Below are positions 855 through 35,564 of a stretch of DNA of 64,000 nt, one piece after another. This stretch comes from a virus: IMG/VR virus record IMGVR_UViG_3300029319_000006, positions 1 through 64,000 of that record; one strand, 5' to 3'. Position numbers and translations under genes: made by a program. The stretch's first letter is position 1, and each line of letters starts with the position of its first letter. The notes under the pieces are model-generated. The model saw nothing but the letters and a program-made list of their open reading frames with translations, searched no databases and was not told the origin of the DNA.

Positions 855-1556
855 CTATCCATTTTTAATTATTTTTTGTATTTTCCATGGAGTAAAACAT
901 ACTGTTCCTAAACTAATATGATCAGCTCCAGCATCAAGATATATAGATGCACTAAAACTATCAGTTACTCCACCTCCTGCAATAATTTCTACATGAGGAT
1001 AATTCTTTTTCAGAAAGGAAATAATTTCCAAGGTATGAGGCGCAATAATTTTTCCACTAAGTCCTCCTTTTTCAGTTGGTAATGTATTACTTGCATGTAT
1101 TTGTTTATATCCTAAATTAATTATCTTATCAAGTTGTTTATGAGTTATTGTTGGTGGTACTTTTACAATACACCACTTACGTTTATCTTTTGAAAATCCT
1201 TTTATTAAACTTGGATGTTTATCGACATTAGGACAACTAATATTAAGTTCAACACTCAAATTTTTAGGTACTATTTGATAAAGAATTTTCCAATCATCTT
1301 TTTGTAAACTTGCTATACTTAAAACATTATGCCATTTATGTTTTTCTAATCCTTTAAATATTCCGGGATTACGTAATCCTAAAGCATTACGCCATCCCCA
1401 ACCAGCTTCTGATTTTACATATCTTAATGTTTTGATTATTTGTTTTAATCTACCAGGACGAGGTTTTAAAGTAAAAGTACCAGTAACACATATTGCATTT
1501 GTAGCAAAGGTAGAATATTGTAAAAAATTACCAAAAGGAGCACTAATAAAATACAT
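855..1556 (-). CDS. dihydroorotate dehydrogenase-like flavoprotein
   Basis: NALGLRNPG, ELNISCPNV, SNT, GGLSG, IIAGGGV...GAD motifs. Confidence 0.75.
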   Translation of the reverse strand: MYFISAPFGNFLQYSTFATNAICVTGTFTLKPRPGRLKQIIKTLRYVKSEAGWGWRNALGLRNPGIFKGLEKHKWHNVLSIASLQKDDWKILYQIVPKNLSVELNISCPNVDKHPSLIKGFSKDKRKWCIVKVPPTITHKQLDKIINLGYKQIHASNTLPTEKGGLSGKIIAPHTLEIISFLKKNYPHVEIIAGGGVTDSFSASIYLDAGADHISLGTVCFTPWKIQKIIKNG

Positions 1557-1563
1557 TACCAAA

Positions 1564-9134: not shown

Positions 9135-9223
9135 TGGCTTTGGGGGGTGGATTCGAACCACCACGTCTTGCTCCAGACAATGTATAAACAGTACACCGCG
9201 TCTACCAATTCCGCCACCCCAAA
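9135..9223 (-). tRNA. atypical tRNA with GUU (Asn) anticodon and long variable arm
   Basis: TTTGGGG/CCCCAAA acceptor plus GCCA; GGCGGAATTGGTAGACGC D-arm; GTGTA-CTGTTTA-TACAT anticodon arm; GTCT/AGAC V-arm; GGTGG-TTCGAAT-CCACC T-arm. Confidence 0.88.
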
Positions 9224-9227
9224 CTAT

Positions 9228-10043
9228 TTAACTCATAGCTGCAATCAGCCTGGTCAATCCTATTCCTCCACCCACTCGTGGAAAGAATTCTAACTTGAAA
9301 AAATCTTCTAATTCTTTTTCTACTCTATCTTTTCCAAATAATTGAAATAATAATTTTGAGTATTCACCTTTTGCAATTGTATGAAATGTATCTCTCATTT
9401 GTTCTTTATCACAGGATCTTTCTGCGGAACCAATAGTTTCCATTCCTCCTAGTATTACATCTATTTTTTTACTATGCATACCAGTATCCCATCTGGACAT
9501 ATTCCAAAAAGGACTTGTGAATTCTGGAAAATCAGTAATCATAGCAGTACCAAATTCTTCACCCATTTGGTTTTCATGTTTAGCTTCAATTTCTTCATAA
9601 GTAGCTAAGTTATAATGTCTCTGCCATGCTTCATATGATTTTTCTTCAGGAGCTGCAAATCCTAGATAATTTACTAACTCTCTTTCCATAGATTTAAGAG
9701 TTGATATATCTCCTGGAAATTCAAATTCAAACATAGGAAAAATAATATCATGTCTTCCTGGTATTGCATTTGGTTCTTGTCTATATGATGTTGAGACACA
9801 AAAAAAGCCAGGAACATCTGGCTTTGTAAGTAATTCGTGTTCTAACCACATTTGTCCCGTTTGTGGTAACGGCCATATTTGACCTGCATAATTGTAAGTA
9901 GCTACATTAAATGGGTCTTCACAGGCAGCAAGAATACTCAATCTATTTTGTGTATGGACTTCTAAAAATCCCTTGTCTAAAAAAAAAGACCGTAAACGGT
10001 CTGTAGTGTCAGTAAATTTTTGCGGGTCAATCAGCTGCGTCAT
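9228..10043 (-). CDS. class IIb (Asp/Asn) aminoacyl-tRNA synthetase-like protein, catalytic domain only
   Basis: Motif 1 FFLDKGFLEV, motif 2 YRQE...RH...FPMFEFE, motif 3 GGGIGLTRL; no N-terminal OB-fold. Confidence 0.85.
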   Translation of the reverse strand: MTQLIDPQKFTDTTDRLRSFFLDKGFLEVHTQNRLSILAACEDPFNVATYNYAGQIWPLPQTGQMWLEHELLTKPDVPGFFCVSTSYRQEPNAIPGRHDIIFPMFEFEFPGDISTLKSMERELVNYLGFAAPEEKSYEAWQRHYNLATYEEIEAKHENQMGEEFGTAMITDFPEFTSPFWNMSRWDTGMHSKKIDVILGGMETIGSAERSCDKEQMRDTFHTIAKGEYSKLLFQLFGKDRVEKELEDFFKLEFFPRVGGGIGLTRLIAAMS

Positions 10044-10076
10044 ATTTTTTCCTCTAATAAAAAGTTTAAACTGATT

Positions 10077-10084
10077 TATTTATA
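10077..10084 (-). promoter_or_regulatory. late promoter TATAAATA for aaRS-like gene and tRNA
   Basis: Exact consensus in intergenic gap. Confidence 0.65.
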
Positions 10085-34356: not shown

Positions 34357-34546
34357 CTATCACCTTTACTATAGGTTCTTCAGAAGTTGCATCTATATAA
34401 TCTTCTTTATTACTGTAAAAAGATCTTGTTACAACATGTTTAACTAACATATCGTTTTTTATTTTATATGTAATCAATTCTTGTTTTACAATATTATGAT
34501 CATCTTGATCAGCCGCAATTTTCAATGGACCTGGTTTCATAATCAT
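34346..34546 (-). CDS. hypothetical protein
   Basis: Coupled ORF. Confidence 0.55.
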   Translation of the reverse strand: MIMKPGPLKIAADQDDHNIVKQELITYKIKNDMLVKHVVTRSFYSNKEDYIDATSEEPIVKVIDDV

Positions 34547-35043
34547 ACTATATCCTCTATTTTCATAGCTTCATACTTTTCCATTGGTTGATGTATCCAA
34601 GGATTATCAGGCAATAGATCAACATAATAATCAGGTGTATATTCTGAACAACCTTTCATCCATAGTACTGCTGTTCTAACATCATCTATAAAAAAACCAT
34701 GATAATGTTTTAAATATTGTAAACTCTTTTCTAATGTTTTACCAGAGTCTGCTAAATCATCTACTAATATAACTTTATTACCCAGATTAGGAGTTGTCTT
34801 GGCTAACGAATTAGAAAAAATTAATTGTCCTTGTTTATCTTTCACTTTATCTCCATGATAAGATTCAGCAGCCATAATAGCTAATGGAACATCAAACAAT
34901 CTAGCAAATACATCTCCAACTCTCAACCCCCCTTTTGCTATACACACAACTTGATTAAATTCAAAACCATCACCGTGTATTTTTTTTGCTAACTTTTCAA
35001 TATCTCTTTCATATCGATCCCATGATATATTTAAACCAGTCAT
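34543..35043 (-). CDS. purine (xanthine/guanine-type) phosphoribosyltransferase
   Basis: IAKGGL, VILVDDLADSGKT, PDYY, WI..P.E. Confidence 0.85.
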   Translation of the reverse strand: MTGLNISWDRYERDIEKLAKKIHGDGFEFNQVVCIAKGGLRVGDVFARLFDVPLAIMAAESYHGDKVKDKQGQLIFSNSLAKTTPNLGNKVILVDDLADSGKTLEKSLQYLKHYHGFFIDDVRTAVLWMKGCSEYTPDYYVDLLPDNPWIHQPMEKYEAMKIEDIV

Positions 35044-35564
35044 TTTTTCTCCTTTATTCCAAATGATAATAATAGTCTTGATGAGTCTGGATATGCTGCA
35101 TGATGTATTCCTTTTGGAATATAAAGCCATTCACCTCTTTTTAATCTTTTAGATATAGTTGATCTAGTAGTCATAGTTTTCTTTATATCATCATAATCAC
35201 AACCATCTTCAAATACTCTCCAATTGCATTCACCCATTACTTGAACTACAAATACTGTCATTCCATCAGTGTGAGGAGGAGATGCTCTTGAATTTATCCC
35301 TAGTCCTGCATACACATGGACAGAATCCATTTTTAGATTAAAATTTTCTATTTGTTTTTTAACATAAGACATCAAAGGGAAAAATAAATTTTTTCGTTCA
35401 AAATTTAATCCAACAAATATTTTTCTTGTGTCTTGACTACGTTTATTAGTATTTGGATGACGAGCTATACTATCAAACCATGGTATTATTTGATCCCATG
35501 TTGGATAATAATCGTCGTTGATTTTAAACTTACCTTGTTGTACTTTATCAGGGGAAAAGTTCAT
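35040..35564 (-). CDS. JmjC/cupin oxygenase
   Basis: PHTD, FVVQV.G...W, GEWLYIPKG.HH.A. Confidence 0.75.
   Translation of the reverse strand: MNFSPDKVQQGKFKINDDYYPTWDQIIPWFDSIARHPNTNKRSQDTRKIFVGLNFERKNLFFPLMSYVKKQIENFNLKMDSVHVYAGLGINSRASPPHTDGMTVFVVQVMGECNWRVFEDGCDYDDIKKTMTTRSTISKRLKRGEWLYIPKGIHHAAYPDSSRLLLSFGIKEKK

What the first reader, a model, noticed from the sequence alone, without database searches (positions are those of the whole stretch)
9135..10084. Anticodon-blind Asx-tRNA-synthetase paralogue co-transcribed with a hybrid class II tRNA(GUU): candidate self-contained phage aaRS/tRNA pair
Seen: a late promoter (10077..10084), then a 271-aa class IIb catalytic core with motifs 1-3 but no anticodon-binding OB domain, then, 4 nt after its stop, an 89-nt tRNA. 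The tRNA has Asn hallmarks (GUU, U1-A72, G73) but a Leu/Ser-like D-arm, a long base-paired variable arm and U at position 37. Known: bacterial tRNA-Asn is class I with a purine at 37; U1-A72 is the GatCAB determinant; catalytic-only class IIb paralogues (AsnA, archaeal asparagine synthetase, EpmA) normally do not charge tRNA. Inference, alternatives: (a) an orthogonal pair in which the V-arm replaces anticodon recognition, supplying Asn-tRNA in a host that may rely on transamidation; (b) the enzyme makes free Asn; (c) host SerRS charges the tRNA (G73 plus long arm) and it misreads Asn codons; (d) the altered loop evades host anticodon nucleases.
Basis: partly seen in the sequence, partly recalled or inferred. 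Interest (0 to 1): 0.9.

Follow-up and report, generated by a model that had tools for sequence, protein, structure and literature searches.

The report
Phage AsnRS-like enzyme with captive tRNA
A marine T4-like phage carries a cut-down look-alike of the asparagine tRNA-charging enzyme followed four bases later by an oddly built asparagine-type tRNA that never occurs without it, yet the enzyme's relatives belong to pyrimidine (DNA building block) synthesis, so this is probably an untested metabolic enzyme with its own tRNA partner and not a simple private charging pair.

Summary
ORF 9228-10043(-) is a 271-aa class IIb synthetase catalytic core with no anticodon-binding domain. Four nt after its stop lies an 89-nt tRNA (9135-9223, -) with GUU, U1-A72, G73 and CCA on a tRNA-Leu-type body, a paired variable arm and U37.

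The pair is conserved. The tRNA follows the gene in 72 of 80 related viral loci and in P-SSM2/5/7. In a search by tRNA pattern alone, 74 of 74 informative contigs had the enzyme gene just upstream. The enzyme does occur without the tRNA, in 8 of 80 phage loci (intact genes) and in all 49 non-marine-phage (mostly cellular) homologous loci.

The family is closest to AsnRS but fails the AsnRS, AS-AR and EpmA models. It is fused to DHODH or OMP decarboxylase, sits beside pyrD/pyrE/pyrF in three phyla, and alternates with PyrB in Chlamydiota. This window also encodes a mini-DHODH-like gene.

Best reading: a new AsnRS-derived pyrimidine-pathway enzyme with an Asn-type tRNA that exchanges Asn with it. 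The direction of transfer is unresolved. The orthogonal translation pair remains a live rival.

The scan has found this cassette before on other DNA, and I reached the pyrimidine link independently. No experiment exists.

The parts
10077..10084 (-). TATAAATA, a T4-type late-promoter-like octamer 33 nt upstream of the ATG
   Evidence: Exact match. It is intergenic, but the motif is not enriched in the window (14 found vs 16.7 expected), so function is not shown.
10050..10055 (-). AGAGGA ribosome-binding-site-like sequence 6 nt before the ATG
   Evidence: Read from the sequence.
9228..10043 (-). 271-aa stand-alone class IIb (AsnRS-like) catalytic core, a member of an uncharacterised family (PHROG 29758)
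   Evidence: Pfam PF00152 E 7e-16. No NCBIfam equivalog is reached. AF2 model pLDDT 96.3. VIA Z 27-28 to AsnRS. AsnRS-type pocket residues. More than 8000 clusters at 90% identity in metagenomes.
9135..9223 (-). 89-nt chimeric tRNA(GUU): U1-A72, G73 and CCA on a tRNA-Leu-type D arm, with a paired variable arm and U37
   Evidence: ARAGORN. Rfam 46.7 bits. Own covariance model 100.2 bits. Covariation in 37 homologues.
855..1562 (-). Mini dihydroorotate-dehydrogenase-like ORF (235 aa; motifs NISCPN, GGLSGK, AGGGV), a probable pathway partner 7.7 kb downstream on the same strand
   Evidence: Pfam DHO_dh 51.3 bits, over the cut-off. Best NCBIfam matches are all DHODH models, below their cut-offs. 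It is 58% identical to the ORF that directly follows the enzyme gene in the tRNA-less phage L043.

Best explanation
The 271-aa protein is not a translation synthetase. It belongs to an uncharacterised family derived from the AsnRS catalytic core, and the family acts at the start of pyrimidine synthesis, delivering dihydroorotate (or its immediate precursor) to DHODH in place of aspartate transcarbamoylase and dihydroorotase.

My inferred chemistry runs as follows. The enzyme runs the AsnRS half-reaction (Asn + ATP gives Asn-AMP). The alpha-amine then takes up CO2. The resulting N-carboxyanhydride is opened by the side-chain amide nitrogen, which closes the dihydroorotate ring.

In marine myophages the gene has acquired an obligate companion: a chimeric tRNA with a tRNA-Leu body and tRNA-Asn acceptor end and anticodon. 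I think this tRNA is a dedicated Asn carrier that exchanges asparagine with the enzyme's AsnRS-like active site. Most likely the host's non-discriminating AspRS loads it (reading GUU and G73) and GatCAB amidates it (reading U1-A72). It then hands activated Asn to the enzyme. A pyrimidine at position 37 and the odd body would keep it poor at decoding.

What is shown: the anatomy, the conservation, the one-way dependence, and the pyrimidine gene links. What is inferred: the reaction, the substrate, and the direction of Asn transfer.
For: Pair and dependence:
- The tRNA lies 15-150 nt downstream on the same strand in 72/80 IMG/VR loci and in P-SSM2/5/7.
- In the reverse search by tRNA pattern, 74/74 informative contigs have the enzyme gene directly upstream.
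- The tRNA is under strong structural selection, while U1-A72, G73 and G34U35U36 stay fixed and neighbouring pairs covary freely.
- Position 37 is U in 71, A in 7 and C in 2 of 80 tRNAs (G37 was excluded by that search pattern, though none of the 37 ARAGORN-derived sequences aligned has G37).

Enzyme identity:
- It is nearest to AsnRS. VIA Z is 27-28, against 23.5-24.4 for AS-AR and EpmA, and profile-vs-PDB E is 1.5e-16.
- The pocket is AsnRS-like: QTGQMWLE (Leu where AspRS has Lys), FPMFEFE (Glu where AspRS has Asp), ETIGSAER.

Pyrimidine link:
- Fusions exist with DHODH (P0123, 55% identical to the window protein) and with OMP decarboxylase (P0141).
- The gene is directly adjacent to pyrD, with or without pyrE, pyrF or a pyrE-pyrF fusion, in 6/28 cellular loci from Pseudomonadota, Bacteroidota and Chlamydiota.
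- Five such genomes have no PyrB or PyrC over the cut-offs.
- Among 25 DHODH-positive Chlamydiota, 22 have PyrB over the cut-off and one scores just below it, and none of these 23 has the family. The 2 without PyrB are the 2 with the family.

Phage level:
- This window encodes a mini-DHODH-like ORF.
- Its 58%-identical homologue directly follows the enzyme gene in the tRNA-less complete phage G002, and lies close by in L004, L058 and L063.
- P-SSM2 and P-SSM7 each encode PyrE.

The phage and cellular clades differ at no conserved column beyond V/I, F/V, M/L, I/L and F/L.
Against: - No biochemical data exist for any family member.
- Most cellular loci (22/28) are not next to pyr genes. Three of 5 family-positive Chlamydiota genomes showed no DHODH at E<=1e-10.
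- All ATP- and amino-acid-binding residues are kept in the phage clade, so the enzyme can activate a free amino acid itself and need not draw on aminoacyl-tRNA.
- The tRNA was lost at least three times without loss of the enzyme, so it is dispensable.
- The one-way dependence could also arise simply because the enzyme gene is never lost.
- The class II body could be an anti-determinant for host GatCAB or AspRS.
- I did not test whether the hosts (SAR11, Prochlorococcus) lack AsnRS or asparagine synthetase.
- The tree is a quick search only.
Confidence: 0.4

Rival explanations
1. A self-contained charging pair. The enzyme, whatever else it does, forms Asn-AMP and transfers Asn to this tRNA, recognising only the acceptor end (U1-A72, G73). 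The tRNA then decodes AAY codons and supplies Asn-tRNA directly in hosts that rely on transamidation.
For: - The active site is AsnRS-like and the tRNA has an Asn-type acceptor end.
- The tRNA never occurs without the enzyme, as expected if host enzymes cannot charge it.
- GUU, U33 and a 7-nt loop are conserved as decoding requires.
- The gene and tRNA are tightly spaced, consistent with co-transcription.
Against: - Closely related intact enzymes (76-78% identity) do without the tRNA, and all cellular relatives lack it, in genomes searched whole.
- No clade-specific residue changes suggest a newly gained tRNA-binding function.
- A pyrimidine at position 37 (U/C in 73 of 80) is very unusual for a working decoder of A-starting codons (plus established tRNA knowledge).
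- Strict U1-A72 is the GatCAB determinant, and a directly charged tRNA would not need it.
- No extra RNA-binding domain is present in 271 aa.
Confidence: 0.25
2. Historical linkage only. The odd tRNA is an ordinary, if unusual, phage decoder charged by host enzymes. It arose next to a valuable metabolic gene and stays there because the two are only a few bases apart.
For: - The enzyme clearly has a tRNA-independent role.
- The tRNA is sometimes lost.
- The cassette often sits among other phage tRNA genes.
- All host identity elements for the AspRS/GatCAB or AsnRS route are present.
Against: - A tRNA of the enzyme's own ancestral amino-acid specificity standing beside it by chance is about a 1-in-20 coincidence.
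- The tRNA was never seen relocated or alone in 74 informative contigs, even though the enzymes there diverge to 54% identity and the flanks differ.
- U37 and a chimeric body argue against a plain supply tRNA.
Confidence: 0.15
3. An asparagine supply module. The enzyme is an AS-AR/AsnA-like asparagine synthetase that makes free Asn from Asp and ammonia, and the tRNA adds Asn decoding capacity for an AT-rich phage.
For: - The enzyme is catalytic-core-only, like archaeal AS-AR, with structural Z 23.5-23.9 to it.
- The Parachlamydiales genome G008 has AsnRS but no AsnB.
Against: - It scores 17 bits against a cut-off of 389 for the archaeal asparagine synthetase A model.
- It is closer to AsnRS than to AS-AR.
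- The gene fusions and operons are with pyrD, pyrE and pyrF, not with Asn metabolism.
- It alternates with PyrB.
- Genomes with several AsnB copies still carry it.
Confidence: 0.08
4. The tRNA is mischarged by host SerRS (G73 plus a long arm), or it serves as a decoy or nuclease-resistant substitute against host anticodon nucleases. In either case the enzyme is unrelated to it.
For: The tRNA has a class II shape with G73 and an unusual anticodon loop.
Against: - Acceptor pairs 2-71 and 3-70 vary freely.
- Many copies have only an 11-13-nt arm with a 3-bp stem, which makes poor Ser identity by what is known for E. coli.
- This reading does not explain the obligate link to the enzyme gene.
- No defence genes are implicated.
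Confidence: 0.05

Closest known systems
Asparaginyl-tRNA synthetase, class IIb catalytic domain (e.g. PDB 8H53, 1X54, 9SH8, 2XTI)
   Same: Same fold, with motifs 1-3 (VIA Z 27-28, rmsd 2.1 A over 248 residues). The amino-acid pocket is AsnRS-type, with Leu for the AspRS Lys, Glu for the AspRS Asp, and the conserved Arg.
   Different: It has no OB anticodon-binding domain. It scores 18 bits against the 342.6 cut-off of the asnS model. It carries family-specific motifs (SILAACEDP, PFWNM, an 11-residue insertion before motif 3). It is fused or clustered with pyrimidine genes.
Archaeal asparagine synthetase A (AS-AR; PDB 3P8T, 3REU) and E. coli AsnA
   Same: A stand-alone AsnRS-derived catalytic core that uses ATP on an Asx substrate without tRNA. 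This is the precedent for a metabolic enzyme evolved from this core.
   Different: It is a separate family (17 bits against a 389 cut-off; structural Z 23.5-23.9, below AsnRS). The gene context is pyrD/pyrE/pyrF, not Asn metabolism. AS-AR has no companion tRNA.
EpmA (PoxA/GenX), the EF-P lysine ligase
   Same: A class IIb core without an anticodon-binding domain that transfers an activated amino acid to a non-tRNA acceptor (Z 24.4).
   Different: It scores 13-15 bits against cut-offs of 264-287. The pocket is Asn-type, not Lys-type. No EF-P link was seen.
tRNA-dependent asparagine formation (non-discriminating AspRS + GatCAB on tRNA-Asn)
   Same: The phage tRNA keeps the elements this route is known to read: the GUU anticodon, G73 and U1-A72. 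In that route a tRNA acts as a scaffold for amino-acid metabolism.
   Different: The tRNA here has a class II Leu-type body and a pyrimidine at position 37. Its use by the host route is inferred, not tested.
Enzymes that use aminoacyl-tRNA as a metabolic substrate (cyclodipeptide synthases, which have a class I synthetase-like fold; glutamyl-tRNA reductase)
   Same: The proposed logic is the same: an activated aminoacyl-tRNA feeds a non-ribosomal reaction. Cyclodipeptide synthases show that a synthetase-derived core can do this.
   Different: No known case involves a class II core, pyrimidine synthesis, or a dedicated non-canonical tRNA encoded beside the enzyme.
'tRNA ligase' (T4-GC194) plus 'tRNA-Asn' annotated in Prochlorococcus phages P-SSM2, P-SSM5 and P-SSM7
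   Same: These are true homologues of both parts, in the same order and on the same strand.
   Different: They are only annotated and listed (Sullivan et al. 2010, PMC3037559) and have never been analysed. The cyanophage tRNAs lack an encoded CCA.

Membership tests
Asparaginyl-tRNA synthetase (AsnRS) | Class II catalytic core with motifs 1-3 and an Asn-type pocket | tested here: met
   Pfam PF00152, structural Z 27-28, pocket columns.
Asparaginyl-tRNA synthetase (AsnRS) | N-terminal OB-fold anticodon-binding domain | tested here: not met
   The protein is 271 aa and starts at the core. The first 110-120 residues of the AsnRS and AspRS references are unmatched. The model has a single domain.
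Asparaginyl-tRNA synthetase (AsnRS) | Reaches the curated asnS equivalog score | tested here: not met
   TIGR00457 scores 18.1 bits against a cut-off of 342.6.
Asparaginyl-tRNA synthetase (AsnRS) | Aminoacylates tRNA-Asn with Asn | not testable with these tools
   This needs an in vitro charging assay.
Archaeal asparagine synthetase A (AS-AR) | Reaches the curated family score | tested here: not met
   NF005055 scores 17.3 bits against a cut-off of 389.
Archaeal asparagine synthetase A (AS-AR) | Converts Asp + NH3 + ATP to Asn | not testable with these tools
   The gene context points to pyr genes instead.
EpmA (EF-P lysine ligase) | Reaches the curated family score | tested here: not met
   TIGR00462 scores 13.3 bits and NF006828 scores 14.7 bits, against cut-offs of 287 and 264.
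Bacterial tRNA-Asn | GUU anticodon, U1-A72, G73 | tested here: met
   These are invariant in 37/37 aligned homologues. 2 of 80 pattern-found copies have A1-U72.
Bacterial tRNA-Asn | Class I body (4-bp D stem, 4-5-nt variable loop) and a purine at position 37 | tested here: not met
   3-bp D stem, 17-nt paired variable arm, U37.
tRNA-Leu (class II) | Leu-type D arm and long variable arm | tested here: met
   The D arm is identical to phage tRNA-Leu genes in related contigs. Ordinary tRNA-Leu genes score 62-74 bits on the model of the odd tRNA.
tRNA-Leu (class II) | A73 discriminator and a Leu anticodon | tested here: not met
   G73 and GUU are found in all copies.
New family: AsnRS-core pyrimidine-linked enzymes (PHROG 29758; 'amino acid--tRNA ligase-related protein') | Stand-alone 255-320-aa core with the motifs SILAACEDP, PLPQTGQMWLEHELL, FPMFEFE, PFWNM, ETIGSAER, GGGIG | tested here: met
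   PHROG 29758 E 2e-124. 176 representatives at E<1e-30. Shared conserved columns.
New family: AsnRS-core pyrimidine-linked enzymes (PHROG 29758; 'amino acid--tRNA ligase-related protein') | Works in pyrimidine synthesis | tested here: inconclusive
   Support comes from fusions, operons, complementarity with PyrB and a phage DHODH-like partner. There is no assay, and many loci lack pyr neighbours.

The most novel reading that the evidence does not exclude
A tRNA-fed route to pyrimidines. An AsnRS-derived core would convert activated asparagine (Asn-AMP or Asn-tRNA) plus CO2 into dihydroorotate, replacing carbamoyl-phosphate synthetase, aspartate transcarbamoylase and dihydroorotase. Marine phages would encode a dedicated, non-decoding chimeric tRNA as the Asn carrier for this enzyme. 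That would be the first tRNA serving as a cofactor of nucleotide synthesis, and a new entry into one of the most conserved pathways known.
Probability: 0.25. Interest if true: 0.95.

Novelty: categorically new. Interest (0 to 1): 0.85.

Why it matters
The first three steps of pyrimidine synthesis are textbook-universal. A synthetase-derived enzyme that stands in for them would be a new reaction and a new case of an aaRS core recruited to metabolism. It occurs in Chlamydiota, Bacteroidota, Pseudomonadota, CPR bacteria, DPANN archaea and very abundant ocean phages.

The obligate chimeric tRNA would be either the first natural anticodon-domain-free synthetase/tRNA pair or the first tRNA dedicated to nucleotide metabolism. 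Either outcome bears on tRNA identity, the design of orthogonal pairs, and how abundant SAR11 and Prochlorococcus phages reprogramme host nucleotide supply.

Every part can be tested with standard enzyme assays and E. coli pyr auxotrophs.

Tried and rejected
I called neighbour genes with my own ORF picker and scanned them as a pseudo-alignment instead.
- Relatives cannot be drawn for a virus record, and no host genome handle was available. The claim that SAR11 and Prochlorococcus lack AsnRS or asparagine synthetase was therefore not tested.

Literature: seven full-text searches found no study of this protein family, the odd tRNA, or a synthetase-like pyrimidine enzyme. The only mention is the 'tRNA ligase' entry in Sullivan 2010.

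Rejected readings:
- Chance tRNA-like fold (covariation).
- Membership of AsnRS, AS-AR or EpmA.
- V arm as the recognition handle: its length runs from 11 to more than 30 nt.
- The tRNA being hidden elsewhere in tRNA-less phages. Whole records were searched, and only ordinary tRNA-Leu genes turned up.
- An odd tRNA elsewhere in five cellular genomes (only the top 150 candidates per genome were scored).
- Functional divergence between the phage and cellular enzymes.

Limits:
- The careful tree search did not finish, so the tree used is the quick IQ-TREE run.
- The TATAAATA motif is not statistically enriched.
Full report
**Observation.** On the minus strand, ORF 9228..10043 encodes 271 aa that match Pfam tRNA-synt_2 (class II D/K/N synthetases) over profile positions 28-292 of 308. 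Its TAA stop is at 9230-9228. ARAGORN places a tRNA-Asn (anticodon gtt) at 9223..9135, four bases later. Rfam's tRNA model scores it at 46.7 bits with a 14-nt insertion at the variable region.

Read directly, the tRNA has these features:
- acceptor UUUGGGG/CCCCAAA, giving U1-A72;
- G73 and an encoded CCA;
- a 3-bp D stem with the GGAAUUGGUAGA loop typical of tRNA-Leu;
- anticodon loop CUGUUUA (GUU, with U at position 37);
- a paired variable arm.

TATAAATA sits at 10077-10084(-) with AGAGGA before the ATG. The octamer is no more frequent in this AT-rich window than chance predicts (14 vs 16.7). No terminator-like hairpin separates gene and tRNA.

**The pair is conserved, and the dependence runs one way.** Prochlorococcus phages P-SSM7, P-SSM2 and P-SSM5 carry the same two genes in the same order, annotated 'tRNA ligase' and 'tRNA-Asn', in different neighbourhoods. 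IMG/VR holds at least 575 relatives of the protein.

- In the 80 best loci, ARAGORN plus a covariance model built from 37 distinct copies find the odd tRNA just downstream on the same strand in 72.
- Eight loci lack it within 2.5 kb, even with filters off.
- The whole records of five of those eight contain only ordinary tRNA-Leu hits. One of them is a complete 342-kb genome with terminal repeats.
- The enzyme genes in these loci are intact, at 273-280 aa and 76-78% identity. In a quick tree they nest inside the tRNA-bearing pelagiphage clade as about three separate losses.
- In the converse test, I searched viral contigs with a pattern for the tRNA alone. All 74 contigs with enough upstream sequence carry the enzyme gene directly upstream (gap 17-394 nt, median 24), with enzymes diverging down to 54% identity. 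Six contigs were uninformative.

So the tRNA is never seen without the enzyme, while the enzyme does without the tRNA.

**The tRNA.**
- Across 37 distinct sequences, 99.8% of cells in the cloverleaf pair and 16 of 23 pairs show compensatory double changes.
- Pairs 2-71, 3-70 and 4-69 vary freely. U1-A72, G73 and G34-U35-U36 are invariant in that set, and U33 is kept in 36 of 37.
- Two of the 80 pattern-found copies have A1-U72 instead.
- Position 37 is U in 71, A in 7 and C in 2 of 80. The search pattern excluded G, and none of the 37 ARAGORN-derived sequences aligned has G37.
- The D arm equals that of tRNA-Leu genes in the same phages.
- The variable arm runs from 11 to more than 30 nt. ARAGORN mistypes the long forms as Asp, Glu or Ile.

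From established knowledge, GUU and G73 are the identity set of AsnRS and non-discriminating AspRS. U1-A72 is the bacterial GatCAB determinant. A73 is required by LeuRS. A purine at position 37 (t6A for A-starting codons) is near-universal in decoders. The molecule is thus a Leu body re-addressed to the Asn machinery, with a loop that looks poorly suited to decoding.

**The enzyme.** It meets no curated equivalog. Best scores are aspS_nondisc 28 bits (cut-off 368), asnS 18 (343), archaeal asparagine synthetase A 17 (389) and EpmA 13-15 (264-287). PHROGs has it as family 29758, function unknown. Sources name it 'tRNA ligase', 'amino acid--tRNA ligase-related protein' or 'hypothetical protein'.

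- It is extremely abundant, with more than 8000 clusters at 90% identity.
- It forms a distinct stand-alone family: 176 representatives at E<1e-30, mostly 255-320 aa.
- An AlphaFold model built on 58 diverse members has pLDDT 96.3.
- The model aligns best to AsnRS catalytic domains (Z 27-28, rmsd 2.1 A, 248 residues). Next come archaeal/eukaryotic AspRS (25-26), then EpmA (24.4), AS-AR (23.5-23.9) and LysRS. Profile-vs-PDB gives the same order.
- In an alignment made here with E. coli AsnRS and AspRS and two further AsnRS, the family has Leu where AspRS has the aspartate-binding Lys. It has Glu where AspRS has Asp at the end of motif 2, as in AsnRS. It keeps the Arg of the GGSxR element and the Glu that holds the alpha-amino group.

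**Cellular relatives point to pyrimidine synthesis.** A scan of one genome per prokaryotic species found 52 loci. Three are marine phage contigs binned into MAGs, and they carry the odd tRNA. The other 49 (47-63% identity) have no tRNA nearby. They come from Chlamydiota, Dependentiae, Woese-, Pace- and Nanoarchaeota, Patescibacteria, Bacteroidota and Pseudomonadota, on contigs up to 3.2 Mb. A few on short contigs may themselves be viral.

- Five of these genomes, searched whole, hold only ordinary tRNA-Leu as best matches to the model.
- Clustering my own neighbour-ORF calls showed that dihydroorotate dehydrogenase is the immediate neighbour in 6 of 28 loci from three phyla. Orotate phosphoribosyltransferase, OMP decarboxylase or a fusion of the two lies next to it.
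- In Parachlamydiales the gene overlaps the start of the DHODH gene.
- Two long representatives are fusions: DHODH + family domain (P0123, 55% identical to the window protein) and family domain + OMP decarboxylase (P0141).
- The five pyrD-linked genomes have no aspartate transcarbamoylase over the cut-off (best 160 bits vs 237) and no dihydroorotase of either type over the cut-off. CarB is present in two, AsnRS in three and AsnB in three.
- In an even sample of 120 Chlamydiota, 25 have DHODH. Of these, 22 have PyrB over the cut-off and one scores just below it, and none of these 23 has the family. The two without PyrB (G008, G051) are exactly the two with the family. By my arithmetic this is 1 in 300 by chance, not corrected for relatedness.
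- Three further family-positive genomes showed neither DHODH nor PyrB, which is a caveat.

**The link holds inside the phages.** This window itself encodes a 235-aa DHODH-like protein at 855..1562(-). It scores 51 bits on Pfam DHO_dh, over the cut-off, all its best NCBIfam matches are DHODH models, and it carries the motifs NISCPN, GGLSGK and AGGGV.

- Its 58%-identical homologue starts 35 nt after the enzyme's stop in the tRNA-less complete phage, where the tRNA would otherwise be.
- It lies just after the tRNA in L004, the closest relative of this window, and just upstream in L058 and L063.
- Four of eight larger pelagiphage-type records have it, although several are fragments.
- P-SSM2 and P-SSM7 lack it, but each encodes PyrE over the cut-off.
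- The phage and cellular clades share all conserved columns. The only conserved-but-different positions are V/I, F/V, M/L, I/L and F/L, so the chemistry is very likely the same.

**Mechanism (inference).** An AsnRS-type site that still binds ATP and an Asn-like substrate, is physically fused to the next enzymes of the pathway, and replaces PyrB suggests that the family delivers dihydroorotate.

One chemically economical route uses only the AsnRS half-reaction. Asn-AMP forms, the alpha-amine takes up CO2, the carbamate closes on the activated carboxyl to give the N-carboxyanhydride, and the side-chain amide nitrogen attacks C2 to give dihydroorotate. An ATP-driven ring closure of carbamoyl-aspartate is an alternative.

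Asn-tRNA is an equally activated form of Asn. The phage tRNA keeps precisely the elements that non-discriminating AspRS and GatCAB read, has an anticodon loop ill-suited to decoding, and exists only beside the enzyme. My favoured reading is therefore that it is a dedicated Asn carrier for the enzyme, loaded by the host's indirect pathway.

The opposite direction, in which the enzyme charges the tRNA, explains the one-way dependence equally well and cannot be excluded. My odds:
- that the enzyme is a pyrimidine-pathway enzyme: about 0.75;
- that the tRNA is functionally tied to it: about 0.8;
- for the full favoured scheme: 0.4.

**Rivals.**
- A self-contained translation pair (0.25). This is weakened by tRNA-less intact relatives, the absence of clade-specific changes, U37, and the unneeded GatCAB determinant.
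- Purely historical linkage (0.15). This is weakened by the match between the tRNA's identity and the enzyme's ancestry, and by 74/74 co-occurrence across divergent phages.
- An asparagine-synthetase module (0.08). This is contradicted by family scores and gene context.
- Ser mischarging or a decoy role (0.05). These are untested and leave the linkage unexplained.

**Novelty and prior record.** The only literature trace I found is the table entry 'tRNA ligase' (T4-GC194; P-SSM2 and P-SSM7) in PMC3037559. The pelagimyophage survey PMC7029224 does not mention it, and the other searches found nothing.

Earlier notes of this scan describe the same cassette on other genomes and reach the same 'pyrimidine enzyme with captive tRNA' reading. 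I arrived at the pyrD link independently, before reading them, and tested their fusion lead myself.

New here are:
- the DHODH-like gene in this phage, and its place directly behind the enzyme in tRNA-less phages;
- the PyrB complementarity in Chlamydiota;
- the A1-U72 variants;
- the proposed N-carboxyanhydride chemistry.

**Limits.** There is no experiment. The host pathways were not examined. MAG incompleteness affects the absence calls. The tree is a quick search only.

Noticed in passing
window 855-1562 (-): A 235-aa minimal dihydroorotate-dehydrogenase-like ORF with the class 1 catalytic-Cys motif NISCPN. It is much shorter than cellular DHODH (about 310-360 aa). A 58%-identical copy directly follows the AsnRS-like gene in a tRNA-less 342-kb phage (L043 3357-4052).
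   Followed up: yes
window 34543-35130 (-): A 195-aa phosphoribosyltransferase. Best matches are xanthine/hypoxanthine PRTase (55 and 41 bits, below cut-offs), with a weak match to the 'orotate PRTase-like protein' model (33 bits). Its substrate is unresolved, and it could belong to the same nucleotide module.
   Followed up: partly
L002 (P-SSM2, AY939844.2), locus 2871-2958 vs 861-946: The GenBank record places tRNA-Asn at 164094-164179, inside CDS PSSM2_205. ARAGORN finds nothing there. It finds the tRNA about 2 kb away, directly after the 'tRNA ligase' gene (record about 162082-162169). This looks like a coordinate slip in the record.
   Followed up: partly
L164 (IMGVR_UViG_3300030110_002194): A divergent cassette. 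The enzyme is only 54% identical and groups outside the main phage clade in the quick tree. Its tRNA has A1-U72 instead of U1-A72 and no encoded CCA.
   Followed up: no
L068 3400-3500 and L078 1994-2094: These copies of the odd tRNA have G instead of the near-universal U at position 33 (loop CGGUUUA).
   Followed up: no
L009, L011, L044, L066, L070 and others (variable arm): A subfamily of the odd tRNA has a 28-31-nt variable arm with a conserved inner stretch (GCAA-A/U-N-UAUUUA). ARAGORN mistypes these as tRNA-Asp, Glu, Ile or undetermined.
   Followed up: no
L114 3452-5152 (Chitinophagales chromosome OZ244113.1): A 567-aa amidohydrolase-superfamily gene lies directly downstream of the AsnRS-like gene in the pyrD cluster. 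It has weak matches to dihydroorotase, hydantoinase and deaminase models and is a possible pathway partner.
   Followed up: no
P0123 and P0141 (metagenome proteins): Natural fusions of the family domain with DHODH (661 aa) and with OMP decarboxylase (588 aa).
   Followed up: yes
G046, G053, G086 (Chlamydiota genomes): These genomes are family-positive, but neither DHODH (E<=1e-10) nor PyrB was found in them. Either the genomes are incomplete, their DHODH is too divergent, or the family has a second role.
   Followed up: no
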